64,000 nt of DNA from assembly GCA_030141605.1 (NCBI GenBank), contig JAQGDQ010001023.1, positions 1 through 64,000 on the forward strand. The letters are read 5' to 3'. Under the pieces are notes generated by a model. That model ran no database searches. It was not told the DNA's origin and saw nothing but the letters and a program-made list of their open reading frames with translations. Shown piece after piece: positions 1,806 to 61,975 of this stretch. Each line of letters starts with the position of its first letter. The stretch's first letter is position 1. The DNA is from Tubiluchus corallicola. Its lineage: Eukaryota > Animalia > Priapulida. A program made the position numbers and the translations under genes.

Positions 1806-1877
1806 AGAACTGCCAAAGCTTCCAAGTTACTAAAAGCTCCATCAGCAATTTCTTGAACAAAATTATAGCTCAGATCT
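1806..1877 (-). CDS. Host LRR gene exon (72 bp LRR); gene presumably continues beyond window start
   Basis: cctttctttccag| ... |gtaagt, phase 2-2. Translates (L)DLSYNFVQEIADGAFSNLEALAV(L). Confidence 0.92.
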
Positions 1878-5500: not shown

Positions 5501-5569
5501 TCTTTGTGCTGTAATGATGTTCCTCTGTTTTGCTGTTACTGATTGCAAGACAGTTAAAATCAGCATTCT

Positions 5570-8977: not shown

Positions 8978-9049
8978 AATTTATCTAAGACTGGAAGATT
9001 GTGAAAGCAATCACTGCCTATCCTTTCCAACTTGTTATGACTTAACAAC
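8978..9049 (-). CDS. Host LRR gene exon (72 bp LRR)
   Basis: tttattgtag| ... |gtaagt, phase 2-2. Translates (L)LLSHNKLERIGSDCFHNLPVLDK(L). Confidence 0.92.
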
Positions 9050-9209
9050 CTACAATAAAAATCATATGTTTTTAAACTTCAATGCTAAAACTTTTAGATA
9101 TTTGTTAGATTTATACAAAAACACTTAAACAGAACTTGAAATAATGGAAAAATAAATTTTCAAATAAATAAATAAACAATTTTTTTAGTTAAGCTTTCAA
9201 AAACAGAAT

Positions 9210-9490
9210 TGCAAATGCTTTCAATTAGATATGAAAATGTTCTCAACAGAGGTACAAATGCTTTCAACAGCTTTGCAAATGTTTTCAACAGAGGGGCGCA
9301 CAAGCTTCCAATAGCGATGCAAATGCTTTGAATACAGATCTAAATGCTTTTCAAAGAGGTACAAATGCTTTCAACAGAGGTGCGCATGCTTTTAACAACT
9401 TTGCAAATCCTTTAAGCACAGGTGCAAATGCTTTTCACAGAAGTACAAATGCTTTCAACAGAGGTGCAAATGTTTTCAGAGATGGAAATG
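9210..9490. repeat. Degenerate 21-bp minisatellite
   Basis: Unit approx GAGGTGCAAATGCTTTCAACA. Confidence 0.85.
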
Positions 9491-10467
9491 CACAAAAACA
9501 TATTTTGCTTTATAATTCCAAATCACTTACAAACAAAACTTGCAAAACAGTCATGCTTTTGTGCTTGTTTTTTTAAATCATTTTACTAGAATTATATTCT
9601 ATTTATTCTTGCCATTCAACGTTATGAATTTGCTTGGTTAACAATTGCGCTTACATGCCGTACATTGCGCTGCAGCTGTGTTATTCGTAGAGACCACTTT
9701 GGAGAAAGCCCAAGTCAGAAAACTGTAGCCTTTATTAGACTATTCACAAACAATAGTTCAGGCTCCCTCTTTCTCCCTCCCTCCCCCCTCTCTCTTTCTG
9801 TGCCTCTCTTTCCCTCTTTTTCTCTTTCTGTGTCTCTTTTTCTATCTATTCTCTCCTATTTCTCTCCCTCTTTCTTACTCTTCATTTCTCTTTCTCTCTC
9901 TCACTCTCTCTCTCTTTCTCTCTCTCTGTGTCACTCTGTTTGTCTGTCATGTTTCTGCCTGTCAGTCTTTCTCTCCTTCTTCCTCCCTCTCTCCCTCTCA
10001 TCTAACTACTTTACGTTTAATTGCTTGGCAATCACTGGGTGAGTTATTTAAAATGCCTTGCTAGAAAAAATTACAGCACAAAGACCAAAAGAAAAACCAT
10101 AACAAAATCTATACTAAGGTTCCCAAAACATAGGAATTTATTTGTAAAGAAATGTAACGATCGTAGGCTATTAAAACAGGTCTACTAAATCACTAAAATT
10201 ATTAACAAGTCAAATAAAACTAAACTGATTTTTCAAGACATTAATTTACTTTGTCAAGATTATAAGCATATTTATTTTTCAGTCTACAGAGGAAAAGAGT
10301 GGTAAAATAATAAACAACTCTTAATATGAAATATAAATAATCACTGATGGTTTTTGCGAGAGGAAGCCAGTTATAATAATGAATAAAAGCAATTCACTTA
10401 AATCACTTTAAGGGTTTCAATTTTTAGATCATAACTTCTGTGACGTGTAACATTTTTATTGCTTTTA

Positions 10468-10691
10468 CTAAAAAAGCACCGCGACGATGAGAAGAAAAAT
10501 GGCGACTGAAACAATGGTTTGTCGATGAATCACGCCATCTACTTTTGGCAACACCTCAGGACATTCAATGTCTTTTAATTTGGCTCCTTGATAGGTAAAA
10601 TTATTCTCATTATTTGTGCAGTCGATGATTGACGACATCCACTTCTTATCCAATGCCCACTTAATGAAACAGTCGCAGACTAAATCGTTTT
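10468..10691 (-). CDS. Nested LRR gene A, coding exon 2 (LRRCT + hydrophobic tail)
   Basis: ctgttgcag|AA AAC. Joins as ELT-Q-NDLVCDCFIKW...VAIFLLIVAVLF*. Spliced CDS 810 nt = 269 aa. Confidence 0.9.
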
Positions 10692-11167
10692 CTGCAACAG
10701 ACGGACAACAAAGTAATAAAATTCAACAAGAGAATTGATGCAAAACATGTGAAAAGTGCTGGCTTAGTTATCTCACAAAATAAAGAGTTGTGTAATAAAC
10801 TATTTTTCGTTTTCTTTCTGTTTTTCTTTCTATTCTAAGAAAAAATGCAACAAATGAAGTCACTTCAGTGAGTCTAACAAATTGTGAAACAATTCGTAAT
10901 GGCTGAATAGATATAATTCATAAAAATAAGAAAAAAAGAAAAAGTTCACGCATTTCAATTGGCTGATAGTCTAATTAACTGTCGAATCTAAAACCTTAAT
11001 ACTTGTTAAACTTTTGACTGCAATAATATTTCTATCGATTTCTTATCCGTCATCTTAGTGTCATGTTAGTGTTTGTATTATTATTACGATAATACTATTG
11101 CATGCGGGGCTCTAACACCATTAATTCAGTGGCAAAGGGGGTGAATTTTGGGCTACCTTGACCCACT

Positions 11168-11250
11168 GGGGAGGCGGTGGCTTAGTGGCATAAGGCGTCT
11201 GTAGTGTAAACAAAAGATTCATAGTTCAAATCTAGGCTGAGTTCCAACTT
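11168..11250 (+). mobile_element. tRNA-like SINE head in gene A intron
   Basis: A box TGGCTTAGTGG and B box GTTCAAATC; no intact cloverleaf. Confidence 0.5.
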
Positions 11251-11361
11251 TTTCACATGTTTTCACGCTTTTACGATTTGTAATAGTACTATGAACTCTC
11301 CTCGTTCCCTGTAGTTTGTGGTCAAAGGCGTCTTTAATATATTGAAGAAATAGGGGTTAAA

Positions 11362-11785
11362 ATTTACAATTCCCCACATACAACAAATTAGTTCGTGAAT
11401 AGGATTAAGCTTAGAGCTATGAGCCAAGGCTGTTTGGGGGTTACGGCTAGGCTTAGGGTTATGGTTAGGGTATTATGCTGTATTTGTGTCACTCAGAGCA
11501 CGTTAACTGAGAGCCTGGAAGCAGTTTATAATTCTCCACAGAGTTTAAATACCCTGACCTTATCCTAGGCTTAACCGCAACCCTAGTCCTAACCCTAAAC
11601 TTAACTTTAACACTACCCCATCTCTAACCCAATTCTAATCCTATCCCTAATCCTAGCCCAAACCCTATTCCTACTCCTAATCCTAAGTCTAACCCCAACC
11701 CCAACCTTTTCCCTAATCTTAACCATAATTCTAATCAGCTTCCTGAAGTAATTTCATATGTAGGGATTAGTAAAGCTTTAGCCGA
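11362..11785. repeat. Dispersed element with degenerate telomere-like hexamers (TTAGGG / CCCTAA)
   Basis: Begins TTTACAATTCCCCACATA, ends GTAGGGATTAGTAAAGCTTTAGCC. Related shorter copy at 1233-1385. Confidence 0.6.
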
Positions 11786-12046
11786 GAGTTTAAAACATTT
11801 TTTAAAAAACTACTCAAACTATGAAAAAAATGATTTAATGTAAATAGAAATTAAAACTAAAATCGATAAGAATGTCAACTCATCGTTTTGATCGCTGACC
11901 AGCGATGCCTGACCATCGCAAACGTATTGTTTTTCGTTTTATTTTGTAAAAACAATATATCAATGACGTTAATTTCAATCAGCATATGTTATTTTTTGTG
12001 TCTAAAAGCCGTTTGTTGCTTGGCGATGGCGATATGTTTTACTTAC

Positions 12047-12632
12047 GGGTAAGCTCTAATGTAATTTCCCCCTTTAGTGCTCTCTGGTCCAGTTCAATCT
12101 CTTCAATTCTTTCCAAAGCCGAATTGTCGGTTATTATGATATTTTTGATTTCCGCACTAAAGTGCAACTTCGTCGACACGTTCTGCAGGGCGTGGTTACC
12201 CACTATCTTGACTAAACCAAACGTTCCGTCCTTATGGCTAAACGTACTCAGCCAGATCTTTTCCAGCTCCTCATTCTCTACGATATGAAGCTCTTTCATC
12301 AGTATAATGGGTTGTGGATCGTCCGGAATTCCTATCTCCTTCAGGAAGGGACAGTTGACAATGCGCAAAGACCCGATCGTCTTTCCTTTAAGAAAATTTT
12401 CCGGGAACAACTCGTCCATATACCATTCAATAATAAGAACCCTGAGTTTGGAAGGTAGCCCGGCATCAATTTCTTTCATTTTTTCTTTGTTTATTTGCGC
12501 TTCCGCCCTTCCGCACTGTACCACGCCGCATCTGCTTTGGTATGTGCATTCATCGTATTTTGTACAGCTTTCAAGTGTACCTAAGCAAAGGCACAAGAGG
12601 AATACTGTTCTCTGCATTATTCTCCTGTACAT
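12047..12632 (-). CDS. Nested LRR gene A, coding exon 1
   Basis: M(YRRIM)QRTVFLLCLCLGTLES; LRIVNCPFLKEI, LHIVENEELEKI, IIITDNSALERI. Donor ITLELT C|gtaagt (phase 1). Confidence 0.9.
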
Positions 12633-14498
12633 TGTAAGCAGTAGAGCTTATAGATGGACGAACAGCAAATGGTTCTATTTAGGCGCAGTTGTGATGAAAC
12701 TGTTTATAAACAAAACTCTGTATGGCAACAAATGCAATTCTTCTGATTACGTCGGCAACATAGCTACGAGTAAGCTTCTGTTCTTGGTAAAATTGTTGCT
12801 CGTTTAGACTGAAAAAGAGACATCGTGATCATTGTCAGGATTCGGTCTCCTTGCACATCACCCGCAGTTGTCTCATAGCAGCTGACCCCTTCACTAAACA
12901 ACGAGGAACCTTTTCACATATTATAATCAAATATTTACTTAGTGTCACATTGCAACGAGCTAGCACGAATATTAAAACATTTGTCTAGATAAGAGTAATT
13001 ATGATGTAATTTTGCCTGCAAATGTGAATAAACGTATTATACTAAAAAACGACCTAGCTTAATATAGAAGTAAAACAATCCACATAGTAACTAATTAACG
13101 AGTTACAGAAACTCATAAAACTAAAATCCGTAAAAAAGTAAATATTATGACATGCATTCACTTTTTAAATTTAATAAGCACTTTACAGTCACCAGTCGAA
13201 TATAATTGAAGCAACACTGGACTATTAATTAAGTGCTTAAGTCTACCAAGATATTAATGAAATGGATGCAAAACACCAGTTTAATGTGCTGACCAAAAGT
13301 TTCTTTATTCTGTAATACAATGTTTAACAATTAGTTTAATTTGCATTGAGTAGAATAGAGTTCATTGCATGATTAGATGCATGACTATAACTAAGAAAAC
13401 TGACATAAAATTTATATAAGCTATATTAAAATTAATTAATAATGACTTACGTTGTTAGAGCCTTTAATAGTTACAAAGACAGGAATGAGAACTCCAAGGC
13501 CTTAAGAACAACAATGTCACAACAATAAACTTGTAAGAAATTTAGAGTCATAATGTTCATCATAGACACAACACTAGAGCAATGGCGGAGAGAACCAAAA
13601 GACGGGTAAAATGTCATACAACTACTATAGCTATAGCTCACGAAAGATCAAAATGCCAATGTATTCAAGGATATTAGGTGCTTCAATTTTAAAAGAGTGA
13701 CTACTGTAAAAGGTAAAAAGTCTACTAAATAAACAAACAGGTGGCAGCACCGTGGCAGTAACTAAATAAAAACTAAAAGGGGCCCATGCACCCGCTACAA
13801 TTACTAATAATTATGTATAAAACAACCCGCTCAGACGTTTTCTCTCAAAGAGCAAACTTGCACGTGCGAACTCTTTTGCGAGTTACTGTAAGCAAGTTAT
13901 TGAAAACTCGCCGGTAGTTACTGCCAAATGATTTCCTGTGAGTTACTCTCTAGTGTTAGCTACTCGACGAGTTACTGTCGACACTGCTTGCAGTGAATAG
14001 AGAAGTGAGTGCCAGCTAACGCTTACTGTTAGAGTGAGTTAACTTGGCAAAAAAACTCGCTAACCTTAGCGAATCGTGCATTTTAGTGGAGATTTAAAAT
14101 TATTGGTTTTCCAAACACCGGAGTAACACACGTGCATTCTTATTGGAAATTACCGATTCAAAATCAGTACCAATCAAAAATCAGCAACTTATATGTTGTA
14201 TACTTTGGAAATGAAACCACTGCCAACTAATTGAAAGCTAAAAAACAGCAGGAAAAAGTTGCAGTATTACTTTCCCAATAAATAATGTAGAAAAGAGCAA
14301 AAATTTGCTCAAAATGCGAAACCAAAAAGCCCCAAATTTTGACTTGAGGCTGAAAATAAGGAGGGATTGTTGAGGATTTGACTTATTTTTGTCGCTATCG
14401 ATGCATTGTTGTCGTCATTGTTGAATTAAATATGTGCCAAGAACGACTAAGCAAGTTGATCATTAATTTTTATTAAGAAAAGCTACACCAAGAAAACA

Positions 14499-14737
14499 TT
14501 AATACGTTTGTGAAAAAATAGCAGCTATAAACTTGAAAAACAAAACAGGAAATATCGTCCCCTGGTGATATAGGACTCCAGATGTAATTCTGGTTTCGTT
14601 TGTACATTTAAGAAATTCATGCAACTCAATGTGTTTTTGCTGATGTTTTATGTTTGGTTCCGCACAGTCAACAAGGGAGACCTTCCAGTTTAGCTCTTTG
14701 GTCCACTGCATCTCACAGTCGCAAATTAAAGGATTTT
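14499..14737 (-). CDS. Nested LRR gene B, coding exon 2 (LRRCT + hydrophobic tail)
   Basis: cttttttcag|AA AAT. Joins as ELS-E-NPLICDCEMQW...FPVLFFKFIAAIFSQTY*. Spliced CDS 849 nt = 282 aa. Confidence 0.9.
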
Positions 14738-14929
14738 CTGAAAAAAGATACTTTGTTAACATGTTTTGTTATTTGTAAGAAATGGAACTTGCAATCATCT
14801 GAAGCTTGAAATTGTCTAAATGGATTATGCTTATGACAGTTTACATATTGCTTTTAATGTTTTTTAACTACATTTTTAACTACATTAGCTTTTAGACGTT
14901 TACTTGGCCAACTAATTGATGTACACAAA

Positions 14930-15507
<578 letters not shown>

Positions 15508-15998
15508 ATGTTCCTAGGCCTTATTGTTTGTTGTTGGCTTATGAATTATGAATAGGCTAGACCTATTTTTCTACAAGTCATGCCAACTTGTGTTAGAAAT
15601 GCAGTGAGATTCAAGTTCTGCTGGCTATGCAGACCACGTGCGTGTATGGTGCCTCTTGTACGTATCACGTTACTTATCCTCCCTTGACTAACCTGCACCT
15701 CTAACCGCATTCTTCTCTACGCACCCTAATTTTGTACCCTGCCTTTTCTTGGTCGCAAATAAACTTGGTTGAAAATAGCATTGAACAATAATGTCATCAT
15801 GAGTTCATGGCGATGATTGTGGTCGTGTCTCTTATCTGTAAATATGGATCAAGCGTTGCTTTGCAGAACTTTTGTGAATATAGTAATGATTGTTCGTGGG
15901 AAAATATATAATGTGGAATAATAATAATATGAGTTTTCGCTCAATAGTTTTTCCTGTTGCAGTAACTTTAGTGAGTTATAATTATCATTAGTCCTTAC

Positions 15999-16608
15999 CA
16001 CTTAATTCTAAAATGACGTTCTCAGGTTCTGTCTTTGGTGATAGAACAGGTTCTGCTATTCTTTCCAATGACGGGTTGCCAACGATCACAATGCTTTTCA
16101 GCTTGCCACTGTTAGACAACTGCATGGACACTTGGTTGAGCACGGGATTCCTCATAATGAACAACTTTTGCAGCCGTTCTCCTTTGTTGTCAAAACTACT
16201 GAGGTAAATTCTTTCCAGTTTTTCGTTTTCTGTGACATAAAGGTCTCTGATTCCTGCTCGTTGCGTACTTGTATCGTTGCTTACACCGATGGTTCTCAAG
16301 CGTGGACACCTGGTGATGTGTAAAACTGTAATGACCTTATCCTTCAGGAAGCCTGTTGGAAAGTATTCGTCCATGTAAAATGTGATAAATAAAAACTTGA
16401 GTTGCTTGGGTAGTATTGAGTCAATTTCTTTCATTGCATCTTTGGAGATGTGCCCATTTTTGCACTCTATGCTTCTACACGATTCGTCGTACGTACAAAG
16501 CTCTAGGTTCTCAAGACGAGGGCAGTTTGGTTTGTTGTTGTATGGGAAGCAGTTGCAAGTCTTACTTAAGCAGAGAAGTAAGGCAAAAATGTGTGATAGA
16601 TTTTTCAT
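15999..16608 (-). CDS. Nested LRR gene B, coding exon 1
   Basis: Likely start MKNLSHIFALLLCLSKTCNC at 16608 (the ORF track extends further upstream). LHITRCPRLRTI, LYVTENEKLERI, IVIVGNPSLERI. Donor ILELS G|gtaagg (phase 1). Confidence 0.88.
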
Positions 16609-16789
16609 GTCCTCCTTGCAAGTGCAGTAGGAAAAGAAAATGATTCTAGAAGTTTTTGAAGGAAAATTATAGGCTGTTAAGTTAACAATGCCTTCTACAG
16701 TAACCATGAACCCAGTTACTAACTTAACTATGTCGTTATTAGGTTGGGTCTCGAAGTTGCATTTTCCCCAAAACAATTCATTCGGGTTT

Positions 16790-17200
16790 TGTTCTTCATC
16801 ATCGAAGTGCTTCTATGTTCTAAAACATGCCACGTCCCGTCTATTGATGCCACTCATTCCTGTCCACAGTCAACACCCACGATGCATCATCCCTCAAACC
16901 TAAAGATGTATTTACTAAATCTGCTGACGACCTCTTGGTTTTTTTCTCATTTGAAGAGCTTTACGCAATGTTGCAGGAAGAGGAGACTCTTGAGGTAATC
17001 TTAGTCCATGCCCAATCCAATGCAATCTTCTTACTTGTATTTGTTTACTCCAAGGATTCTTCTTCACCACATCACCACATTATACAGATCATCATTGGAT
17101 ATTCTATGGGACTATTAAATGCCTAACAGTTTTCTGTACAGTCGTCTTAGAAAAGCGTCGCTTTCCTTCTGCTATTTAACTTTTATTGTCCATAGCCCAG
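16790..17200 (-). mobile_element. RTE-clade LINE 3' fragment just upstream of gene B
   Basis: With stops and frameshifts: WT...DAFLRRLYRKLLGI, PWSKQIQVRRLHWIGHGLRLPQESP, KKPRGR, VDRNEW. Confidence 0.75.
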
Positions 17201-17388
17201 TAATATTTAAAAATACACGTTCAACTAAAGTTGAAAAGATTCGGACTTTGATTTCAAGAGGGAGTCTGTTGTTTTGCAAAACCGTTGTGAGACTTGAACA
17301 AGTAGACAATGCTCGAAGTCGAAACCAAAATCTGAGTAGGAGAGGTGTGGTTTTGCTTGTGAAACTTCGGAAAAATGCAGGTTAAATG

Positions 17389-18383
17389 AATGTGCTAGCA
17401 ACGGCTTCCTTAGCTACCACGTTGTTCACGTGACGCTGGGTTTATAAACAATGCTACACAGTGAAATGTGACACGTGATTACCAATGTGCTAGCAACGGC
17501 TTCCTTAGCTACCACATCGTTCCAGTGACGCTGGGTTTATAAACAATGCTACACAGTGAAATGTGACACGTGATTACGAATGTGCTAGCAACGGCTTCCT
17601 TAGCTACCACATCGTTCACGTGACGCTGGGTTTATAAACAATGCTACACAGTGAAATGTGACACGTGATTACCAATGTGCTAGCAACGGCTTCCTTAGCT
17701 ACCACATCGTTCTCACCAAAACAACACAAAAACACAACCAACCAACCCCACCACACCACGTGACGCTGGGTTTATAAACAATGCTACACAGTGAAATGTG
17801 ACACGTGATTACCAATGTGCTAGCAACGGCTTCCTTAGCTACCACATCGTTCACGTGACGCTGGGTTTATAAACAATGCTACACAGTGAAATGTGACACG
17901 TGATTACCAATGTGCTAGCAACGGCTTCCTTAGCTACCACATCGTTCTCGTGACGCTGGGTTTATAAACAATGCTACACAGTGAAATGTGACACGTGATT
18001 ACGAATGTGCTAGCAACGGCTTCCTTAGCTACCGCATCGTTCACGTGACGCTGGGTTTATAAACAATGCTACACAGTGAAATGTGACACGTGATTACCAA
18101 TGTGCTAGCAACGGCTTCCTTAGCTACCGCATCGTTCACGTGACGCTGGGTTTATAAACAATGCTACACAGTGAAATGTGACACGTGATTACCAATGTGC
18201 TAGCAACGGCTTCCTTAGCTACCGCATCGTTCACGTGACGCTGGGTTTATAAACAATGCTACACAGTGAAATGTGACACGTGATTACCAATGTGCTAGCA
18301 ACGGCTTCCTTAGCTACCGCATCGTTCACGTGACGCTGGGTTTATAAACAATGCTACACAGTGCAATGTGACACGTGATTACT
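17389..18383. repeat. 95-bp minisatellite, about 10 copies
   Basis: Unit AATGTGCTAGCAACGGCTTCCTTAGCTACC...CACGTGACGCTGGG...GACACGTGATTACC. Confidence 0.97.
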
Positions 18384-19495
18384 AAACGCAAACTCTTCCA
18401 ATGCGAATAATTCAACACCGCCATCTGAAATGCAAAAGGCTCGAAATGAAGTTCCAGACTTTTTTTCGAAAATAACACTTTCACCCCGGATTTCCTCATG
18501 TGTAAGTCTCTAAGAAAACCTTAGTTAGATCATTTTCTTCCTATTTTTATGAGTTGTACGTGACCTTTAAGCAAATGTGATATCGGCATCGTTAATTTAG
18601 TGATGGTTTTATGAAGCTTCCCCCTGGCTAACAGCAGTCCTACTAGACTGTTGTTTTGCCGCTTGTATATTAGTCCATGTATTTTCGATGAAATTAATTC
18701 AAGTCACAGCTAGATAACACGCTAGCTAATTAATGTTATTAATTAGGACTTAAACGATATTGATTTGACTAACAAGTCTGTAATAAGACAGATTCGTGTA
18801 ATGACGGTTCGTTTCCGAGATATCAAAAAACCTAACTCCTAAAGATAGTCAGTTATCATATAAAATTATATGTCAATATTAATTTATTATGCACTATTCT
18901 TGTGAAATGTCTTTATTTCGTTATTTTAAATGTAAATGTTTTAAATAGGCGTCAATGAAAAGTAAATCATCTAAAAATTCAACATCGTTTTTAACTGAGA
19001 AAATGTGGATTATATTTGGCAAGACCTGAGTAAACAAATTTTTATTTATCTTTTGAGATGGAAGCTTTCTTTTTTAAACGGGATAAAATGTACCAGATAT
19101 CCGGCAGCTTCCAAGTAATATTCAAGTTGTAATTGAGTTATTTGTGATTTTGATATTGTTTTGTTACACCATCATTAATTCCCAAAATAAGCTAAACTGA
19201 GATTATGTTATGAGAAAACAGTGTCTCCACATGCGAGATTTATTTAAAAGACAAAATAAAAGCAAAAAATTAAAAAAATACAAAACGATTTTCTAATAAA
19301 TCTAAAATCTTCTAAATTCTAATGTTTTAAATAAAATCTTGAAACTCATCTTCAAAAAGCTTTCCTGCACAAAATAGCAACAATGGAGTATAGGAATGTT
19401 TTTAACATTATTGAACAGCTGAAATGTTAATGAATTTTTTCCAAAAAGGAAACTTCTTCGCTAAGAAATCAGTCTATGAAGTAAGTTTTATGGAT

Positions 19496-19728
19496 TTAGG
19501 CTGCGATGAAGAACATGACAACAAAAATGAGGAGCAGAACAGGAAGTGACATATACTGATGAACCGAGACTTCCGCTGAGAGTTCTGGGAAGCCATCACA
19601 GAACTCGTCCACTTTTACTTCTCTTTCTCTGTAGTTAAATTTAAGTGGTGAGTCACAGTCAACGATGGAAACCACCCAAGGCTTTTCTTTGGTCCATTTC
19701 ATGTCACAGTCGCATATAAATTTGTTTT
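19496..19728 (-). CDS. Nested LRR gene C, coding exon 2 (LRRCT + hydrophobic tail)
   Basis: ctttttag|AA AAC. Joins as ELT-Q-NKFICDCDMKW...VLLLIFVVMFFIAA*. Spliced CDS 837 nt = 278 aa. Confidence 0.9.
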
Positions 19729-20696
19729 CTAAAAAGAGCAACAAAATTGAAAAAATAAATTTCAACTTCATAATTAGCGAAGTGTCAAAATGTGGATTAG
19801 CGTAACTAGAATTAACAAGCACCATACACCAGAATGATAGCACATAAAAACTATTTTCTCTTATTATAGATTTGAATTCAAAATCGTTAAAGCAGTCATG
19901 TTAATGTAAGACAAGGGCATTGTCTTTGCAAATCTGTCTAATTTTATTTTAACAGAGTAGGCCTTTTCATAGTTTCATTGTGCGCATTTTTACGATCATC
20001 ATCAATTGCTGGAACTGTGAAAAGGTTTACTGGGCTGTACGTACTTAATCGTAATGTCAAACTAACGCAGGTGGTTGTTGCAATTCTGGAACCTTAACGG
20101 TGACGATCTGAGGTTCATCATCTAAGATGCGATTCAGAACCAGCAATGGTTCGCATGTGAGCATATTTTCGCTAATTTGTATAAAGTACCAAAACTGGAA
20201 CAGTGAAAAAATCGTCCAGTACAAATATTGGTTAACCATACATTTAATTATTAGATTTGCCTGTTTAAGTTTAGGCTAGTCCTATGTAATTCTGGTGGAC
20301 ATACTAATTCCACTCCGGTGGACAGGCCAAAACTTTAGTAAACTACAATTAATTTAATTTTAACCTTCTGCACAAGGTTAAGATTAAGGTTATGTGACAC
20401 CTTAACAGAGATGTGACCAAGGTCCACCACAGATTAATAATTGAATAGTTGTAATAATAACGCCACAGCTTTAGAATTACAAAAGACTAGGCACTAATCG
20501 TTAAACGTGTGTAAAATGTAGTGTATTAATAAAGTAGTTTTTAATCTATCAAATTGTCTTATCATACTGGTCTCCAACCATTAAACCATTGACTCGAAAC
20601 ACCTTAGCACCAATGCATCTGTACCCAGATGCAGCTACTGAGTTCCAGGGGAAAAAACAGGCACACACTTTTGCATTTTGTTCATGACATACTTAC

Positions 20697-21300
20697 GAGT
20701 AAGTTCCAATACAATCTTCTCGGGTTCTGCTGCCTTTGCTAAAACTGGTGCCTTTATCGTTTCCAGATTCTTGTTAAGCGTAACTGAAATTTTGTAAAGC
20801 CTTGTGCTGTTTTTGAGAATCAGCTTTAGTTCCTTTAGCTTGTCGTTTTTCGTGATGATTACTTCTTCCAGACTCTGCACTTCCGAGTCAACAGATGCGG
20901 TAGACACCATTTCCAGCTCGGGATTTTCTGCTACGACAAACGCTCTTGAAATCAGCGCTTTTACATTGTCAACTTTTTTCAGTCTTGGAGATTTCATTAT
21001 ATACAGTTTTTCGATCAATTTTTTGTCGAGAAAATTTCCTGGGAATTTGGCGCTTTCATACTGCAAGATACCTAGACTTTTCATAAAACCAGGCAACTTT
21101 GGTGCAATCTCCTTCATCTTGTTTTCGTCTATCTTGAAATCCGGATAAATACCGCACGTGATAATTGTACAAGTTTTGTCGTATTCACACTGTGGTAGTT
21201 TGTTGATTTCTAAACAATCAAGCTCTGAACCATCTTCATCAAGCTCTGAACCACTGACAACAGCCAAAAATAAGGCGGACACAACAAGTTGTTTTTGCAT
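20697..21300 (-). CDS. Nested LRR gene C, coding exon 1
   Basis: MQKQLVVSALFLAVVSG; Cys cap; LYIMKSPRLKKV, FVVAENPELEMV, VIITKNDKLKEL. Donor VLELT C|gtaagt (phase 1). Confidence 0.9.
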
Positions 21301-22259
21301 GATTTATTCGAGAAAGCAAACGCTTGTAATCTCTTGCAATATTGACTCTTAAAAACGAAAATCAAAATGACAATGAAAAAGAACAGATATATTCTAAAAA
21401 GGTATTCAAACACTGAAAGATCCAGAAGCGCCAACAATAGTAAAACGTCAAAGAATACAATAGAGAAGTGCGATTTTGTTCTGCACTCGCTTTTCAACAT
21501 CGATATCGAGCAATACTTGCAGCAATATATCTCCTTGGAACTCAAAAGTCAAGCTGTAAAGATTAAGGCGGTTAAAACACCTTCTCAGATTACAAACAGA
21601 AAAAATCACCCCAAAGAATACCTTAAAACCTTGCAAAAAACAACTTAGCAAACCAGAAGATTTACGTTTTTACCTTCAGATAAGAGTGGGTGGAATACTC
21701 CAATAACAGAAATGGTACTGTCTACAACAGACGAAATGAGACTTTGATGATACTATACGCAGAAGTCTTATAAGTAGCGCCTAACAAGTCATTGGTTTAC
21801 TGGTACTACAACTGGAACATTCCCATTCTGTCACAGTAATAGTTATTTGTACAGACGAGGCAAACAAACAAAAAAAAACAAAAAAAAAAAAACAGGTAAA
21901 AACAATAAAGCCATGAAAAAGAATGTTTAATTTTGCATGTTGCACACAGTATAAAAATTTTTCTACAAAAATTGACGCAAACAGCGCGTCTCTCACAGTA
22001 AACATTTACTAAACGTGGCAAAATCATTGCTTTTTAATTGTTTGATATGTTTTTTTTTCTTACACAAAGTTTTGCATCATACAAGAGTATAAGTTGGTTC
22101 ACAATTTTTGAAAGCCTCCTCTAACTTAGTTTGCTGCAAAAGCCTGGTGCGTGTGTCCAGACTGTCATACATTTCTGATGAAATAGAGCCAACAAACGTA
22201 GTCCAGCAATACAGGCAGTGGTCACGTGCAAAAATTCAGCCCTCTGATTGGGTACATCT

Positions 22260-22328
<69 letters not shown>

Positions 22329-22774
22329 AGAAGCATACGCAGAAGTCTTGTAGGTAGCGCCTAACTTTTGAAGATGAGAACGCAATATTGTAAGGTGTCG
22401 GAATAATGATGCACTTTTAGAAAGAGAAAGCCCTAATCTACGTTTCCTACAGTGTAATCTGAATCAGAGTTTATGATTTTTATTAATATTAATAAAAGGT
22501 GATACAACAAGGAAGCCATTCAAAACGTTTTTATTTGCCAAGTAAAATTTTACAAGAATTAAACAAATAGAATTAAAAAACACTCTAAATAAAATTTTAA
22601 AATACTTTTAACTAATAATATTAAAAGGAAATTCTTAATAAAATTCAAAAGAATTAAAAAAGTAGAAACAAACGAATAAATTAAGAAATAAACAAGAAAC
22701 TAGTAGGATTTCGCTAGAATTGAAAAGGCAGAGTTTTGTCTAAGTGCGATGTCGTGTAGTGTTATCAGTTAGAG

Positions 22775-23007
22775 TTAGACTGATGTAAGAAACACAATAA
22801 CTAAAGCGAAAAGCAGAAGCTGGAGAGCTATGTTCTGATGAACGGAGAATTGACCCGCGGGAAGGAGGGTACCATCACAAAGCTGCTCGGCAGTAACAGA
22901 CATTTCCTGATGTGTGAACTTAGCTGGTGTTTCACAATCAAGAAGCGAAACCGCCCATGGCCTGTCTTTGGTCCACTTCAATGCACAGTTACAGTTTAAC
23001 TTGTTTT
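22775..23007 (-). CDS. Nested LRR gene D, coding exon 2 (LRRCT + GPI-type hydrophobic tail)
   Basis: ttttttcag|AA AAC. Joins as ELT-K-NKLNCNCALKW...LLLFALVIVFLTSV*. Spliced CDS 828 nt = 275 aa. Confidence 0.9.
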
Positions 23008-23261
23008 CTGAAAAAATAAATAATAAAATAAAAATTGTTCTATATAATAATATTTACTGTTACAAATACTTACTGGTTTTATGTAGTATCAGCATTGAAA
23101 AGTAACGAGGAGTTTCATTATTTACAGTCCAATGACACGCCCTTACAGGACTGGATCTGCCACTAGGCAAATTACGCAGTTTCTAGAGCCGGCCCCATTC
23201 ATATTTTGTTGAGGTCATAAACCAGGGATAACACCTCAAGTACTTTTTCCGAGGTAGTCCA

Positions 23262-23405
23262 GATTATTATTACACGCATCTTACTTCGACCAGTAAGCGG
23301 GTCAAGGAAACCAGTGGTACCATTTTATAATTCTTTGGTATTACATCGTCGGAATTGAACCCGCGACCTCCCAGAAGGAAATCGAGAACGCTATGCCATT
23401 AAGCA
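23262..23405 (-). mobile_element. tRNA-derived SINE (Meta-SINE-like core), in gene D intron
   Basis: B box GGTTCAATTCC followed by ATACCAAAGAATTATAAAATGGTAC. Same family as the copies at about 43100 and 49380. Confidence 0.65.
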
Positions 23406-24739
23406 AAGATAGTTTAGAAGCAGAAACACTGCAGTCCAACTGATTCAACTCCGCACAAGCAAATTTTTTCTTCGTTTACGTATTCAAATTTTGTATAAAA
23501 CTGGGATCATTCGGAATAGATTTTTCTATTGTGCCCCTAGAAAGAACGATTCTATCGTAGGATAGTTTCGAGGTATAAGAATCGCTCCATTTACAACACG
23601 GAGCAGATTCATCCTAGAATTTCGTTGTCTCAGTACATGCACACGGCTTTCAAATTTATATCCACAATTTACATGCAAAATTTGGAGAGAAAAGTCGTCC
23701 ATCAGAAACATTGTAACATTTTAGGAACAAGTCGCAATTTAATTGACTGAACACGCATGCGTGCGTGGTGGACAGAGTCTGGTCTTCTGCCATATGAGTT
23801 TTGTGAGCAAAACTGAACTTCAATAAGATTTTTAATTTCTATTTCTTATTTTTACTTATTTTTCTTTTAAACATAAGGGGAATCTTCTCCAGACCCCTGT
23901 AAAACTTTGGTTAACAAAGCTCTAATTATTAATCAAATTATGTCGCTCGTATCATATAAATGAGGCTAGGATTAAGTAATTAAATCTCTTATCAGCCGCA
24001 GGATTATACTTCTGAAAGTTCCTTCACCCCAGCTAGTAAGTCTGATCCTGGGAAAGATGGAATTTTGCCGCCCCTTATGTTGTTTACCTCCGTAATACGC
24101 AATCGACGATAATTGTACGTAAAACTTGAAAGTGATTGTGTCACTTAACATAAGTAACTAAACGAGATACTTCAATCCACGGGAGACTGTAACAACGTAA
24201 CAGGAGTAAAGAGCCGAGAGGGCGCTTTTGAAATTTTCTTGGAAACAAAAACCTGGAAGTTCTTGGGGATTTCTGCTTGGCTTCCGATGAAAGAACAGCT
24301 CTTCCCTTAGCTCATGTAATAGTAAAAAGAGCAGTAAATTTGAAATTTAAGCTTGTTACACACAGCAGAACTGTGACAGATTGTGTACAATTGAGACAGG
24401 TGGTTGACAATGACGCCACCCGATTTAAAGCCCCAGTTATTACCAATGGCCAAATGTTATTACAATAATTATACAAATATTTGACAAACAAGAGAATAGA
24501 GAAATAGGTCTTTAATTTAAAATTCGTTGACTGTCACTTTGTTTATATGCTAGGCAAACGTTTGGTGGTTCCCAGATTTTAGCAAAATAACCTGCACATG
24601 GAATATTAAATAAACGAGTCAGTGGCTAATTTAATGAGGGGGCGCCTGCTTTGAACACATGATTACTAATACCGTCCTGACCAGAGCCTTAATTTTGGAA
24701 AGGTTTGGTTTGTAAGATAAGTAAAGTAAGGTAACTTAC

Positions 24740-25334
24740 TCGTAAGTTCCAACACGGTATTCTTCGGGTCGTGGTCCTCTGCTAACACAGGTTCCTGTAT
24801 TGTTTCCAGTTTTATGTTAGAGCTAATTTCAATTTTTTGGATACCTGGAGTGTGCTTAAGGACCAATTTTACTTCCGTTAACTTGTCATTGCCTGTGATG
24901 ATCACTTCTTCCAGGGTCGCTTGCTCTTTGTCGATATATTCAGTTGTTATAAAATCGAGTTCAGGATTATCTTTTACTACCAACGCGTCTGTGATCAAAC
25001 CATGAATGACCATAATTCTCTTTAGCTTCTCACACCCCTCAAACTCAAGCCTGTTGACGAGCTTTTTTTCAAGAAAATTATCTGGGAGGTCCTCGTCGTC
25101 ATATTTTGCCGCAATTGTCAGAACTGTCATAAAATCTGGCAAAGCTTCTGAAATTGTTTGCAATAAATTCTTGTCGATCACATTGAAATCTCCACATCTA
25201 ATATTTGTGCACTGTTGATCGTACGAGCACTCAGGTCGTTTAACAAGCGTGTCCGCACAACCAGAAGAAAGAATATTTGGACGGGCATGAACAACAGCCA
25301 AGAAAGAAGTCAAGATAAGGAAATGTTCTTGCAT
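24740..25334 (-). CDS. Nested LRR gene D, coding exon 1 (signal peptide, Cys cap, LRRs)
   Basis: MQEHFLILTSFLAVVHA; C-x8-C-x5-C-x4-C cap; repeats such as LVVKDNPELDFI and VIITGNDKLTEV. Donor VLELT A|gtaagt (phase 1). Confidence 0.9.
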
Positions 25335-26521
25335 GGTGCTTTCTGGGGATTTAAACTCACACTAAATTTTCGCAATGAGTTTTTAAAGTCGAACGAGTTA
25401 AAATGTATTCCGAATAAAGTAATTGTGATGAAATGAGACAAACACTCAATATTGTGAATGGATAAAACAATGGAAACGAAAGTAACGTAACAAAACAGAA
25501 TTGATTCTGCTAAATTACGTGTTTATTTTGTTGGCTTCTTTGCACATTTATAGTATAAAAATGCAAAAAGGATATTTTCGTTTGTTTGCAAAGCTAAATG
25601 TTTTGATCATATCATTATAAGATATAAACATGTAGAATTCGATTTTATCTGAAGTCTTTTCTGTCTTAACATTTACTATTTGTGATGACTTTAAAGTCAA
25701 TACATAAACTTGTTTTTCGTAAATTATTTTTAAAGTTAATGTGCGTATCTCACCTTGTTTTTCTCCCAGGAGTTAATACTATAACAGAGTTTTATATCTA
25801 GAATCCGACACTGTCCATCATCACATCTCACTTCTGTTTTTCTAGTATGTTTAACGATGCTATAACAGCAGACTGGTCGCTATTTTTGCTGTACGCTAAC
25901 TAACGTGGAGATTTTTCAATAACAATTTTTTGGAAAGTTATATTAGCTTTAAGGGCTAAAGTTAACACACTAAAAATTGACAAATTAGTACCAACATTTA
26001 TGACTGTAACTTAATATGAGGTCTAACACATTTATTAATGCGTTTCAATATGACGTTTAACTAGAACTTTTAGAAGTTCGTGATGTGGCGCCACTGTACC
26101 GTCAAACAAATTCGAGAAAGTTGTAGTTATTTGTGGTTTAGTTAATTACATTTCCAAACTTTGAAACACAGACAATGTGAAAAAAATTAAATCGAGCCTG
26201 GACTACACTAAAACAGATTTAAAAGAAAATAAAATTAACCAAAAAATAATTAAATAAAACAGATAAATAAGAGAAAATAGAAGAAATACGCACTAATCAT
26301 CAATGGTTATGAAAAATTTTTAAATTATTGAAAACTGATTCTGAATGACAAATTTACGTGCTATTGATTTCTGAATATTGCAATAAAATAGTATTTTAAA
26401 TTGCTATTATTTTTGCTTACATTGTTCTACCAGATTCATCATCCAAGCACCTTATCTCACACAAATAAATTTTCTTTCAAAATTTCGAGTTCTTATTTTC
26501 TGCAGTCGAAATCACGATTCC

Positions 26522-27069
26522 TGAGAATCCGGTGTAAAAACCCGCGTCGACGCGCACGTGTCAATCACACGATCCATGAGAATCCGGTGTAAAAACCCGC
26601 GTCGATGCGCACGTGTAAATCACAAGATCCATGAGAATCCGGTGTAAAAATCCGCGTCGATGCGCACGTGTAAATCACACTATCCATGAGAATCCGGTGT
26701 AAAAACCCGCGTCGACGCGCACGTGTAAATCACACGATCCATGAGAATCCGGTGTAAAAACCCGCGTCGATGCGCACGTGTCAATCACAAGATCCATGAG
26801 AATCCTGTGTAAAAACCCGCGTCGACGCGCACGTGTAAATCACAAGATCCATGAGAATCCTGTGTAAAAACCCGCGTCGATGCGCACGTGTAAATCACAA
26901 GATCCATGAGAATCCGGTGTAAAAACCCGCGTCGACGCGCACGTGTCAATCACAAGATCCATGAGAATCCGGTGTAAAAACCCGCGTCGACGCGCACGTG
27001 TCAATCACACGATCCACGAGAATCCGGTGTAAAAACCCGCGTCGACGCGCACGTGTAAATCACACGATC
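26522..27069. repeat. 55-bp CpG-rich minisatellite, about 10 copies
   Basis: Unit GAGAATCCGGTGTAAAAACCCGCGTCGACGCGCACGTGTAAATCACAAGATCCAT. Confidence 0.97.
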
Positions 27070-27439
27070 ATTTAAAAATCGCGCACAACAAAAGCATAAA
27101 AAGTTTTTATTTAAACAAAATGACCGAATCAGCAAAACGACTTTGAGGCAGTGTCACGTGACATGGCTGCTAAGCTCTGCGAGTAACACAGATGCTGCGC
27201 TGCGTGCTATACAACTGTAACTTTTGTCGTCACAAATAATTACGACAAAATTAATTACCCAAAATCATATATACAACATCGTAATGCCAATTATGATCTT
27301 GGCTATTATCACGAGAAACTGCCATTGTATCATTGCGGTGCCATCAACACCATTCTGAAGTAAATCAGTTTATAAATCAGTTTATAATCAATTTATAATG
27401 CATCTGTTAGATTACACGAAAATATTCAAAAATACTTAC

Positions 27440-27511
27440 AATGCGTTTAGTCGTGGAGTCCCTGAAAATGCGCCGGATGGAAGTGATTTCAATCTGTTGT
27501 GATTTAAATTT
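27440..27511 (-). CDS. Host LRR gene exon (72 bp LRR)
   Basis: ttcttctttcag| ... |gtaagt, phase 2-2. Translates (L)NLNHNRLKSLPSGAFSGTPRLNA(L), a typical-class LRR. Confidence 0.92.
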
Positions 27512-27719: not shown

Positions 27720-30020
27720 TAATGGTTCACCTGTAGTCTCGGCCTCGGATAGTGCTGATTTATTATATAAGACTTTTTTTAGTGGGGAACACATGAACGG
27801 GGAAGAATTTGATGAAAACTGGAAAAATCACATTGAACGCTCATTATCAGTTATGGACTGGGAGCAAAACGAAAATTTTTGTCTAAATAACTGGTTTAAT
27901 TTACAAGAATTAGAAAATGCTGTAAGTGAAGTGCGAACTGAAGGCAAGTCGCTTGACTCCGATGGGTTTCATAAAACATTTTGGGCCAGTCGCAAAAAAT
28001 ATTGTTTTACGTATTGCAAATATGTGCTTAGAGAAACAATTATGGCCTCGGACGTGCACAAAAGTAATTCCACTAAAAAAACCTAACAAAATCGATTATT
28101 CAAATGCCAGTAATTATCGTCCAATAACCATTTCTTCGTATATAGGTAAACTTGTTGAGCGTTTAATATAAAATAGACTTAAAAATCATTTCTTTCAGTT
28201 AAACTGCATTGATACAGAGCAAGAAGGCTTCACAAAAGGCAAAAATACAGTACGTTATTTAACCAGATTAGTTACTGATATGGAAGACGACATTTTGAAC
28301 AATGCATACGGTATAACAATTTGCTGTGATTACGAAAAATCGTTCGACAGTGTTTGGGTTGAAGGTTTATTATTTAAACTTATTTGTGCAAATGTACGAG
28401 GGTCTATGTTACGCCTTATAGCATATATATTACAAAATCGCAATATTTGCAAAAAGGTAAATGATTATACGTCCAATCAATATCGATGTAATTTATGACT
28501 TCCACAGGGGTCAGTTATAGCCCCAATACTGTTTATATTTTTCATTGCCGATATGTTTTATAACATGCATGACTCTGTTAAAGTACAAGTATGTTGATGA
28601 TGGATCTTTGCAAGTGTCAAATACAGACCCGCAAACCTGTGTTACAATTGCATAAAGCTGTTGTGATGTGCTTCACAAATGGTGCCAGAAATGGCGTTTA
28701 AAGATAAATACGTTACCTGGTAAGACAGAAGCATTGCTAGAAGGGGCATGGGATGAAAATAACAAGCCAGACAATTTAAAAATTAGTAACAATGAAATAT
28801 TACAATAAAAGCAGAATATTAAACTGTTGATCGGAAATTAACATTTGCTAAACACGCGGGTAATGTTCATAAAAAGGTATGGTACAGATGGCGGAAAGTA
28901 AAAAACAATTGCAGTAAATATGCAGGTTTGCGACTTGCTACCATTGTAAATATTTATAAAACTACTATTTTGCCGATTATACTGTACGGTGCTATTGCAT
29001 GGTTAAGTAAAAAACTTTCTGTATTTGAAGATATAATTTATGATATAATTAAAGTTGCTGCGGGGTCTGCTTTTAAACCAGATCGAACTAAATTAGAAAT
29101 GCTTTATGGTCTTCCACCGTTAGACATTGAATTAAATGTAATTGTTGTTAAATCTTGTCTTAAGACGTTATGTCAGAGCGCTGATGATTTAGCTAAACAA
29201 AAGATTCCGCGGTATGGTAGTGCACGTCTGACAGGAAGGCATATTTATAAAAATATTATGTATACACATGCGCAGACTGTGAGACACTTTTTAAAATTTG
29301 TCTGGAAGATCTTGAAGAAATTCCTGAAAATATGTTAAAGTATACTAAACGTCAAATTATGGATTATGTTTATTGTACCTGGTCAACTAAATATAGGCAT
29401 GTTATGCAATTTCGAGGAGAAAATGTTGAAATACAGAATATAAAATGTGAACCCTTGAATTTGCCGCTTGGAAATAATGAAAGGAAAATAGAATCCATTA
29501 CCATGTCTTTTTTAACTGGCCAGGGGAATTTTAACAGCTTTTTGCATAGACTTAATATGTGTGATACTAGTTTATGTCCATGTGGAGAAGAAGAGCAAAC
29601 TCCTCAGCACATTTTATTCAGATGCAATAAAGTAGATAATACAAAAAGAATGCGTTTCATTGAAATAGCTGATGCCAATTATACACGTAATATTATGCTT
29701 CAATCTGATAAAAATTTAATAATGGCTTTCACTAACCTGATCAGAGACAATTTTATACTAAGTAATTGTTAATTTAGGCCCGCTCGAGTATATAAAAATA
29801 AATTATGTAGTTGTGTAAAGTTAATTTGTTTGTATAATACTTGTGATTCGTTTGAAATTATATCTAATTTAAGTATAAAATGTTATTCGTTGTACATAGT
29901 ATGAAACTGGATTTAAAAGATTTGTTATATGAAAATGTAATTTATTGATCTGAGCCTGCAAAAAGAGGCGCCTTTGTGTATATATGTTCATTACTTTAAT
30001 AAAGATTTATTATTATAATT
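27720..30020 (+). mobile_element. 5'-truncated degenerate non-LTR retrotransposon (RT + C-terminal CCHC; I-group-like)
   Basis: Frameshifted motifs NYRPITISSYIGKLVERLI, QEGF, DYEKSFDSVW, PQGSVIAPILF, YVDD, KWRLKIN, LTGQGNFNSFLHRL, CPCGEEEQTPQHILFRC. AATAAA + (TTA) tail; (CT)n on both flanks. Confidence 0.9.
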
Positions 30021-31960: not shown

Positions 31961-32222
31961 TCTGTAATTTCTTGACAAAGCACAATTTATTTAGAAAAAA
32001 GTATTGGCATCTCATTTAAAAAATAATGCAATCACTTTAATGACTGTTTCAAGACATTTAGTTTTTTCCCAAACCTATGTACTGGTGAAAAATGTCAATG
32101 AAAGCTTTTGCACACTGTATATCACACTAAAAAAACCAGCCACTGGCACAACATCGAACTGCGTGATTTATTGGTCGTTAAAGTTGATGTAACAAGAAAA
32201 ACTAATATGAATTTATACTTAC

Positions 32223-32294
32223 AGAAAATCCAGTGAAATAAACCCAGCTAGAGAAATCCGAGAAAGTTGCGAAATTTGATTGAACTCGAGGCTC
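32223..32294 (-). CDS. Host LRR gene exon (72 bp LRR)
   Basis: ttattatctag| ... |gtaagt, phase 2-2. Translates (L)SLEFNQISQLSRISLAGFISLDF(L). Confidence 0.85.
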
Positions 32295-43829: not shown

Positions 43830-44456
43830 TACGATTCAGTTGGTAGCTTATGCCAAAACAAAATACGAACGTAAGTGCTTACCCTTATTCTTATATCTTA
43901 GATTATATTGTTCAATGATTTTTCATTGATTTTAGTCTCCAGTTACTTCAGTTAGTCCTAGCAGACGCCATATAGCGCAAAACTTTGACTAAACGTTAAG
44001 CCATCTTGGATTTTTGCAAAGCTTAAACTGTGGCAGCCGCCATGGAGCGTGATTGAGATGTTTGCAAATAAACCGACACGCAAGTAACTATTGCTCAGTA
44101 AACAGAGTTGGGAAAAGCGACACCTGTTGACAAAGATCGAAAATTCCCTTGATCAGCAACGAATTTTTATACCTCGTCTTATTGGTACAAAGATTTATTT
44201 TAAGGAATATTGACCTATATATCATTGAAGTGTTTAAGAGACTAAGTGTTCCTAATATCAATATAATATTGAATTGAACTGACGATGAGATTTGAGGTAA
44301 AAAAGAGCAACTTACAAGGCGGTTGTAAAGTTTCGAAACTCATCCGCTAGTGAAAGCGTGACATCACCCACCGATCTAAAACTGTTGTGTTGTAACTCTC
44401 TGAAAGTAATAATTATATTTAAAAGTTAATGACTAAATGTAACATCTATTTTGTGT

Positions 44457-45352: not shown

Positions 45353-45430
45353 AGTTTAATATTCTCTGAAATAGTGAAGTTTTCAAAGGAGTTTCCTGGC
45401 AGCTTCTTTAGCAAAGAGTTTCTCAAAAAA
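45353..45430 (-). CDS. Host LRR gene exon (78 bp, first LRR)
   Basis: cttttgttgcag| ... |gtaagt, phase 2-2. Translates (I)FLRNSLLKKLPGNSFENFTISENIK(L). Confidence 0.8.
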
Positions 45431-61598: not shown

Positions 61599-61975
61599 AT
61601 GGCAATAATTCCCAAATATCCAGAATCCCAAACTGATGTTGCCAGATGGGATGTCCCACCTTGACCGATTCTATCACAACTGATTGTTATTCCATACACA
61701 AACTGTTCCTGGTAGCAATTACATCCAGGAAAATTGTCTACAGCGCCACACGGATGGCTACTGTATGACGTCATATTGTCTTGCGGCTCATGATGAATCA
61801 GAACCCCAGGACTAAATACACCGTTGTAGTCATAGTCAGCGGCTTCGAGAAGTCCCGTATTCTGTTCCTGCGAGTGATACAGTGGTCCGGTGTTGATCAA
61901 GGGGGCATCTTCGGACCGCACGGTTGAAAAATCATGCGCAGAGAGCAAAAAACACCACACTATGCTTGCTAACAT
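61599..61975 (-). CDS. Host LRR gene, first coding exon: signal peptide + N-terminal extension + LRRNT cysteine cap
   Basis: ATG at 61975. Hydrophobic start MLASIVWCFLLSA; LRRNT-like PCGAVDNFPGCNCYQEQFVYGITISC. Ends GCC AT|gtgagt (377 nt, phase 2), matching the phase of the downstream LRR exons. Confidence 0.8.

What the first reader, a model, noticed from the sequence alone, without database searches (positions are those of the whole stretch)
9050..27439. The four LRR genes are nested on the same strand inside one intron of a larger LRR receptor gene
Seen: two canonical 72-bp phase-2 LRR exons (27511-27440 and 9049-8978) bracket the whole array, and I found no host-type exon between them. 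Known: nested genes more often lie antisense to the host, because same-strand nesting puts extra splice and poly(A) sites in the host pre-mRNA. Here the host must skip at least eight strong exons and four 3' ends. Host donors are phase 2 and the nested LRRCT acceptors are phase 1, so direct host-to-LRRCT splicing would frameshift. Inference: host and guests may be mutually exclusively expressed or co-regulated as a receptor plus membrane-anchored partner/decoy module.
Basis: partly seen in the sequence, partly recalled or inferred. Interest (0 to 1): 0.85.

Follow-up and report, generated by a model that had tools for sequence, protein, structure and literature searches.

The report
Four LRR genes inside LRR intron
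Four intact small genes for predicted cell-surface leucine-rich-repeat proteins lie head to tail inside what is likely one long intron of a larger, only distantly similar repeat gene, a known kind of layout, and one of the four differs between two copies almost only in protein-changing letters, which likely marks a fast-evolving recognition protein.

Summary
Observation confirmed in the DNA. Four intact two-exon paralogues (G1-G4, 269-282 aa; signal-like N-end, LRR solenoid, LRRCT, hydrophobic C-end without tail) lie on the minus strand between exons 27511-27440 and 9049-8978. Seven exons of the larger gene join into one open 275-aa frame in LRR register, and no other such exon lies in the interval. 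That join is inferred from DNA, and the host's 3' end is outside the window, so 'receptor' is unshown. G1-G4 are 30-42% identical and group together with a spliced relative of G4 from another organism (58%): an old local tandem array, like the host only as any LRR is. Same-strand, intron-containing nests are a minority but known (about 8% of Drosophila nested genes). Nothing here links host and guests functionally. New result: a second copy of G4 exon 1 (run X1) differs at 25 of 530 bases, 20 of 21 changed codons non-synonymous, none in core columns, against 11 of 4817 bases elsewhere. This suggests diversifying selection on a ligand-binding surface. Verdict: real, known kind of nesting; G4 is the lead worth following.

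The parts
61599..61975 (-). Host coding exon 1: signal-peptide-like start, spacer, Cys-rich LRRNT-like cap, start of first repeat; phase-2 GTGAGT donor
   Evidence: the join to the next exons is inferred from the open frame
45353..45430 (-). Host LRR exon, 78 bp, phase 2/2
44316..44399 (-). Host LRR exon, 84 bp, phase 2/2
32223..32294 (-). Host LRR exon, 72 bp, phase 2/2
27440..27511 (-). Host LRR exon A, 72 bp, upstream of the array
   Evidence: Pfam LRR_8 E 0.0007, below the curated cut-off
9050..27439 (-). Inferred host intron, 18,390 bp; the other host introns are 16,168, 953, 12,021, 4,711 and 7,100 bp
24740..25334 (-). G1 exon 1 (ATG to phase-1 donor): signal-like start, cap, LRRs
22775..23007 (-). 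G1 exon 2: LRRCT and hydrophobic C-end; protein 275 aa; poly(A)-type hexamer at 22535
20697..21300 (-). G2 exon 1; in-frame cryptic phase-2 acceptor at 21253
   Evidence: AlphaFold model mean pLDDT 81
19496..19728 (-). G2 exon 2; protein 278 aa; poly(A)-type hexamer at 19244
15999..16608 (-). G3 exon 1; in-frame cryptic phase-2 acceptors at 16645 and 16564
14499..14737 (-). G3 exon 2; protein 282 aa; poly(A)-type hexamer at 14474
12047..12632 (-). G4 exon 1; differs in run X1 at 25 listed bases (12081-12532), 20 of 21 changed codons non-synonymous; cryptic acceptor at 12624
10468..10691 (-). G4 exon 2; protein 269 aa; poly(A)-type hexamers at 10460 and 10276
   Evidence: spliced form 57.6% identical to P0001 over 269 columns
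8978..9049 (-). Host LRR exon B, 72 bp, downstream of the array
   Evidence: Pfam LRR_8 E 0.0013, below cut-off
1806..1877 (-). Host LRR exon, 72 bp; its donor points beyond the window

Best explanation
Four intact two-exon LRR genes lie in tandem on the same strand inside what is likely one long intron of a multi-exon LRR gene; they likely arose from one founder by old local duplications, are likely transcribed from their own promoters into predicted lipid-anchored surface proteins, and G4 likely binds a fast-changing ligand. Shown: gene structures, open frames, phases, relatedness, and the G4 differences. Inferred: the host splices exon 27440 to exon 9049 by recognising its short exons with full GTAAGT donors. 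The guests offer it only long first exons and frame-shifted terminal exons, so a mis-splice would give a truncated host of about 230 aa; this cost is probably limited by expression in different cells or stages, as in flies. Inferred: the C-terminal hydrophobic stretch with 0-4 residues behind it is a GPI signal. Inferred: G4 is under diversifying or balancing selection on the exposed face of repeats 4-5 and the N-cap, as expected of a receptor for a microbe, a gamete or non-self tissue; microbial recognition is my first guess. No functional tie between host and guests is needed.
For: Gene models and the 275-aa open host frame. No host-type exon and no convincing alternative first exon for exon B in the interval: of 21 scored donors, read in phase 2, none has more than 18 codons from an upstream ATG. 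The intron is of ordinary size for this gene (16.2 and 12.0 kb elsewhere). Guests are 30-42% identical and, with P0001, form one group (97/99) among 15 rows; G4+P0001 100/100. P0001 is a 275-aa protein with its own signal-like start on a 1,405-nt contig and matches spliced G4 across the intron position, which fits a free-standing mRNA in a relative. The fold is an extracellular LRR solenoid (pLDDT 87; best Z 16.2, rmsd 2.9, 184 aligned to the FSH receptor ectodomain; Slit2 14.8). G4 in X1: 24 non-synonymous changes in 419 sites against 1 synonymous in 109 (binomial p 0.023) and 4 in 453 intron bases (Fisher p 6e-5); 0 of 20 changed residues in 36 core columns of 154 (p 0.003); background 11 in 4,817. 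Literature: 28.7% of Drosophila nested genes are same-strand and 27.5% of those are multi-exon (PMC3814207); several genes in one host are known (PMC5174743).
Against: The host join rests on DNA alone, and any two phase-2 single-repeat exons join in register, so the open frame does not prove this join. In-frame cryptic acceptors occur in 3 of 4 guests, more than my synonymous-shuffle model expects (p about 0.02, post hoc, home-made score); the G2 site scores higher (4.6) than exon B's acceptor (3.2). The G4 signal comes from two contigs of one run: it could be a recent paralogue rather than an allele, 1 of the 30 differences on these two contigs was not listed, the synonymous comparison alone is only p 0.02-0.04, and two sequences cannot separate balancing from directional selection. 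No GPI or signal-peptide predictor was run; G3's tail is less hydrophobic (2.2 against 3.1-3.3). Same-strand multi-exon nests are selected against in flies, so four of them in one intron do ask for an explanation.
Confidence: 0.68

Rival explanations
1. Host and guests are a co-regulated module: a signalling LRR receptor plus lipid-anchored co-receptors or decoys, in the manner of CD14 with Toll-like receptors.
For: Both are predicted extracellular LRR proteins on one strand. The array is old, yet all four genes are intact. An LRR-only protein acts with Toll receptors in shrimp (PMC10178686, abstract only).
Against: Only generic similarity between host and guests. The host's identity as a receptor is unseen. 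Nested pairs in flies are less correlated in expression and function than neighbours. LRR genes are often nested in unrelated hosts (PMC3565204, passages).
Confidence: 0.12
2. The guests double as alternative 3' cassettes: host exons 1-5 splice in frame to cryptic acceptors in exon 1 of G2, G3 or G4, giving longer anchored LRR proteins with a constant N-half and a variable C-half.
For: In-frame phase-2 AGs at 21253 (score 4.6), 16645 (3.6), 16564 (2.3) and 12624 (2.4); those at 21253 and 16564 fall at the end of the signal-like stretch; chance of 3 or more of 4 about 0.02 in my model.
Against: G1 has no such site (best score -6.3). The sites are not in one aligned column. All four guests keep ATG, signal-like stretch and N-cap. 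Pyrimidine-rich hydrophobic codons followed by an AGY serine create such sites as a by-product (inference). P0001 has its own start that runs colinearly through the G4 site.
Confidence: 0.07
3. There is no nesting: exons A and B belong to different transcripts, or the interval is misassembled at one of its tandem repeats, and the array simply lies between them.
For: Tandem arrays of about 0.55 kb (26513-27069) and 1 kb (17389-18382) lie in the interval; the join is a DNA-only inference.
Against: Exon A has a full donor but no host-type terminal exon follows it, and exon B has no candidate first exon upstream. tblastn of the host finds no remnant in the interval. A misjoin would have to rejoin one gene's exons in frame and order. 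X1 contigs match unique parts of the interval as contiguous DNA.
Confidence: 0.1

Closest known systems
Same-strand, intron-containing nested genes and complex nestings of Drosophila (Lee and Chang 2013, PMC3814207; Assis 2016, PMC5174743; passages read)
   Same: Small, duplicated, fast-evolving genes in a long intron of a larger gene; same-strand multi-exon ones have a median of one intron, as here.
   Different: Here four paralogues with introns share one intron and one strand, and the host is itself an LRR gene. Fly same-strand nests are mostly single-exon (72.5%).
Vertebrate nested LRR genes: LRRTM1/3 in CTNNA2/3, LRRN3 in IMMP2L, LRTM1/2 in CACNA2D3/4 (PMC3565204; passages read)
   Same: Extracellular LRR genes lodged in introns of large genes.
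   Different: Those are described as antisense, one per host, in non-LRR hosts, and are transmembrane proteins; these are sense, four per intron, with no cytoplasmic tail.
VLR-like LRR-only proteins of amphioxus (Bf66946, PMC4731796; passages read) and lamprey VLRs
   Same: Small capped LRR solenoid whose concave face binds ligand; G4's changes include alternate strand positions 64, 140, 142, 164, 166 and 168.
   Different: Guest repeats do not follow the regular 24-residue VLR consensus; each gene is complete in the germline with no cassette array; no Thr/Pro-rich stalk; sequence match weak (4xsq E 1e-7, below LRRC15, LINGO1 and Slit2).
Glycoprotein-hormone receptor (FSHR/TSHR) ectodomain; LRRC26 channel subunit
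   Same: Best structural matches of the guest family model: FSHR Z 16.2, TSHR 15.8; LRRC26 Z 13.7, rmsd 8.3, 229 aligned.
   Different: 13-17% identity; guests have no seven-helix domain and no tail; Slit2 (14.8) and SALM3 (14.5) are close behind, so the match shows fold, not family.

Membership tests
Nested genes (intronic, same strand) | Guest genes lie wholly between two exons of another gene with no host exon among them | tested here: met
Nested genes (intronic, same strand) | The flanking exons are joined in one transcript | tested here: inconclusive
   Open frame and absence of alternatives support it; DNA-only inference
Nested genes (intronic, same strand) | Guests are separate transcription units | tested here: inconclusive
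   Own ATG, signal-like start, stop and poly(A)-type hexamers; relative P0001 stands alone on a 1,405-nt contig; starts not mapped in this organism
Extracellular LRR-only proteins (LRRNT-LRR-LRRCT) | Capped LRR solenoid fold | tested here: met
   Pfam LRR_8 in 6 of 15 alignment members
GPI-anchored proteins | C-terminal hydrophobic stretch without cytoplasmic tail, with an upstream omega site | tested here: inconclusive
   Hydrophobic 15-mer with 0-4 residues behind it and no K/R in 4 of 4 guests; no predictor for the omega site was run; a tail-less membrane helix is not excluded
Variable lymphocyte receptors | Incomplete germline gene assembled from flanking LRR cassettes (PMC13428168) | tested here: not met
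   Four complete genes; tblastn shows no loose cassettes in the window
Variable lymphocyte receptors | Thr/Pro-rich invariant stalk and regular 24-residue LRRV modules (PMC4731796) | tested here: not met
   Translations and alignments, read by eye
LRR receptor (LGR, Toll-like or other) for the host | Membrane-spanning and signalling domain (7TM, TIR) | not testable with these tools
   Host continues past the window edge; no genome held; exon 1 found no relative
Alternative-cassette loci (constant plus variable exons) | Shared exons spliced in frame to each member of the array | tested here: inconclusive
   Exon-2 acceptors out of frame in 4 of 4; in-frame cryptic sites in exon 1 of 3 of 4

The most novel reading that the evidence does not exclude
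The array is a polymorphic recognition locus wired into its host: each guest is made on its own, but host exons 1-5 can also splice in frame into G2, G3 or G4, so one locus yields constant-plus-variable anchored LRR receptors, with G4 alleles diversified on the binding face (a germline LRR system for pathogen, gamete or self/non-self recognition).
Probability: 0.07. Interest if true: 0.85.

Novelty: new member of a known kind. Interest (0 to 1): 0.44.

Why it matters
The layout is a clear case of the arrangement that selection is thought to disfavour (same strand, introns, several guests), so it is a ready test of how a host splices past four terminal exons. The guests belong to a family with no named member in the searches run here (10 of 10 relatives looked up are unnamed, single-member clusters). 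G4 shows about twenty times the local divergence, almost all of it protein-changing and outside the core. If this holds in populations, it points to an undescribed invertebrate recognition receptor, which matters more than the nesting itself.

Tried and rejected
Whole genome: none held, so the host's 3' end, other family copies and synteny could not be examined. RNA: no RNA holder listed for host exon 1; X2 (RNA is a guess) laid only 1 and 5 short repeat-like pieces; neither is evidence on expression. Word-index protein searches: 0 hits for the four-guest alignment, 0 for host exon 1 among longer proteins, 2 unnamed hits for the 15-row alignment. Host exon 1 against the PDB gave only chance matches. 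Foldseek on the G2 exon-1 model gave no match at E 0.001 or better. The protein atlas gave no answer, so the taxon spread of the family is open. No complex was predicted, because the host ectodomain is spread over short exons. A possible extra LRR exon at 59404-59252 (E 0.033) has no fitting splice sites or profile match: rejected. Origin of the guests from host exons: rejected (different intron phase). Earlier findings: none by place or sequence or for the cluster words. Ten paper searches listed no same-strand LRR array in an LRR gene; the library lacks most subscription journals, and supplements were not read.
Full report
Setting. The window is AT-rich, satellite-rich eukaryotic DNA, by its spliced genes and LRR types most likely an invertebrate animal (inference). 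No genome is held.

The host. Seven minus-strand exons (61975-61599, 45430-45353, 44399-44316, 32294-32223, 27511-27440, 9049-8978, 1877-1806), all with phase-2 donors, join into one open 275-aa frame: signal-like start, Cys-rich cap, then one repeat per exon. A home-made scan of the minus strand found 7 phase-2/2 candidates, all LRR-like (6 distinct exons); the plus strand gave 2, none LRR-like; 30 simulations gave 0.07 LRR-like on average. None lies in 9050-27439, also under relaxed scores (9 candidates, 0 LRR-like) or a profile search. Exon B has no candidate first exon in the interval. The simplest reading is one 18,390-bp intron, close to the 16.2- and 12.0-kb introns upstream; the array fills about 14.9 kb of it. 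The join is inferred from DNA. The host runs off the window, so whether it is a receptor is open; exon 1 found no relative.

The guests. G1-G4 are intact two-exon genes of 275, 278, 282 and 269 aa, each with one phase-1 intron at the same aligned place before the LRRCT, a hydrophobic N-end, a hydrophobic C-end followed by 0-4 residues, and a downstream poly(A)-type hexamer. They are 30-42% identical. Pfam barely sees them. A profile search of 1.84 billion representatives gave 101 hits; I inspected 14 and aligned 11 of similar size. 10 of 10 looked up are unnamed single-member clusters on 940-1,667-nt contigs. P0001 matches spliced G4 at 57.6% over 269 columns, across the intron position, so a relative holds the joined, free-standing form (likely an mRNA). 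In a 15-row tree (P0024, P0028 and P0063 left out; midpoint root) G1-G4 plus P0001 form one group (97/99), with G1+G2 (99/97) and G4+P0001 (100/100) inside: the duplications are local and older than the split from P0001's owner. The family model (pLDDT 87) is an extracellular LRR solenoid, nearest to FSH and TSH receptor ectodomains (Z 16.2, rmsd 2.9, 184 aligned; Z 15.8) with Slit2 at 14.8; by sequence TOL-1, LRRC15 and LINGO1 lead. The host scores 8.3 bits on the guest profile, so the guests are not copies of host exons.

Splicing conflict. Exon A joined to any guest exon 2 stops after 6-10 codons, and any guest exon 1 joined to exon B stops after 2. But in-frame phase-2 AGs exist at 21253 (G2), 16645 and 16564 (G3) and 12624 (G4), with none usable in G1. 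Synonymous shuffling of the first 30 codons gives such a site with probability 0.19, 0.08, 0.12 and 0.40, so 3 or more of 4 has p 0.018. This is post hoc and uses my own score; I take it as a probable by-product of signal-peptide codons but cannot exclude use.

Variation in G4. Run X1 (kind not on record) has contigs that cross splice sites unspliced, so it is genomic. Of the 16 X1 contigs listed in the two calls, 13 outside G4 exon 1 differ at 11 of 4,817 bases (one high-depth repeat contig dropped). The other two cover 530 bases of G4 exon 1 and differ at 25 listed places; 29 of their 30 differences are listed, 4 of them in 453 intron bases. 20 of 21 changed codons are non-synonymous: 24 of 419 non-synonymous sites against 1 of 109 synonymous (p 0.02-0.04) and against the intron (p 6e-5). 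None of the 20 falls in the 36 core columns of 154 (p 0.003), 19 of 20 also differ from P0001, and 12 lie in residues 132-171, including alternate strand positions 140, 142, 164, 166 and 168, which in LRR solenoids line the concave ligand face (strands; PMC4731796 passages). The covered parts of G1 and G2 exons show one synonymous change each, and G3 exon 2 none. At the listed places X1 shows only the other letter, which favours an allele over an extra copy, but contigs drop variants, and X1 may or may not be the window's own sample. This is one pair of sequences.

Comparison with what is known. In Drosophila 71.27% of nested genes are antisense, and 72.53% of same-strand ones are single-exon, so about 8% are same-strand with introns; nested genes evolve faster and are less correlated with their hosts than neighbours are (PMC3814207, abstract and passages). 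Several genes in one host are known (PMC5174743, passages). In mammals same and opposite orientation are broadly similar in number, and guest expression can trigger early host polyadenylation (PMC11694760, passages). Vertebrate LRR genes are often nested, antisense (PMC3565204, passages). The guests work like small LRR-only recognition proteins (PMC4731796 passages; PMC10178686 abstract) but fail VLR membership (PMC13428168 passages). Ten searches listed no LRR array nested sense in an LRR gene. Three AI notes on other genomes describe nested LRR genes as common; they are leads only and were not checked.

Verdict. The nesting is very probably real and of a known kind; the proposed host-guest module is unsupported. 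The unnamed guest family and the protein-changing variation of G4 are the parts worth follow-up. Interest 0.44.

Noticed in passing
window 12081-12532 (G4 exon 1): Second copy in run X1 with 20 of 21 changed codons non-synonymous; at 5 of the 20 sites the X1 residue equals P0001, at 1 the window's does.
   Followed up: yes
window 56396-56514, + strand: A single 5S rRNA gene (Rfam RF00001, 102.8 bits, full length) in host intron 1, opposite to the host.
   Followed up: no
window about 27900-29770, + strand: Broken LINE-type retroelement in the host intron upstream of exon A; RVT_1 E 0.00018 at 28172-28495, below cut-off.
   Followed up: partly
window 21264-21297: One X1 contig (depth 8.6) changes strand here, in the G2 signal-coding stretch; read as a 32-base inversion it keeps the frame but replaces the hydrophobic core. 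May be a library artefact.
   Followed up: partly
window 14880-15340, 13218-13931, 19987-20029, 21620-21900: High-copy repeats inside guest introns and spacers by X1 depth; 14920-15228 and 63072-63350 look like retroelement ends (recalled resemblance; no Pfam hit).
   Followed up: no
window 5565-8215, 17389-18382, 26513-27069, 31170-31963, 37563-39354, 47487-48820: Long minisatellite arrays (units 26-95 bp) in host introns, two of them within the finding.
   Followed up: no
P0024: This relative carries an LRRCT-like piece before a full copy of the domain (two blocks match G1-G4), hinting at a tandem read-through or a chimeric contig in another organism.
   Followed up: no
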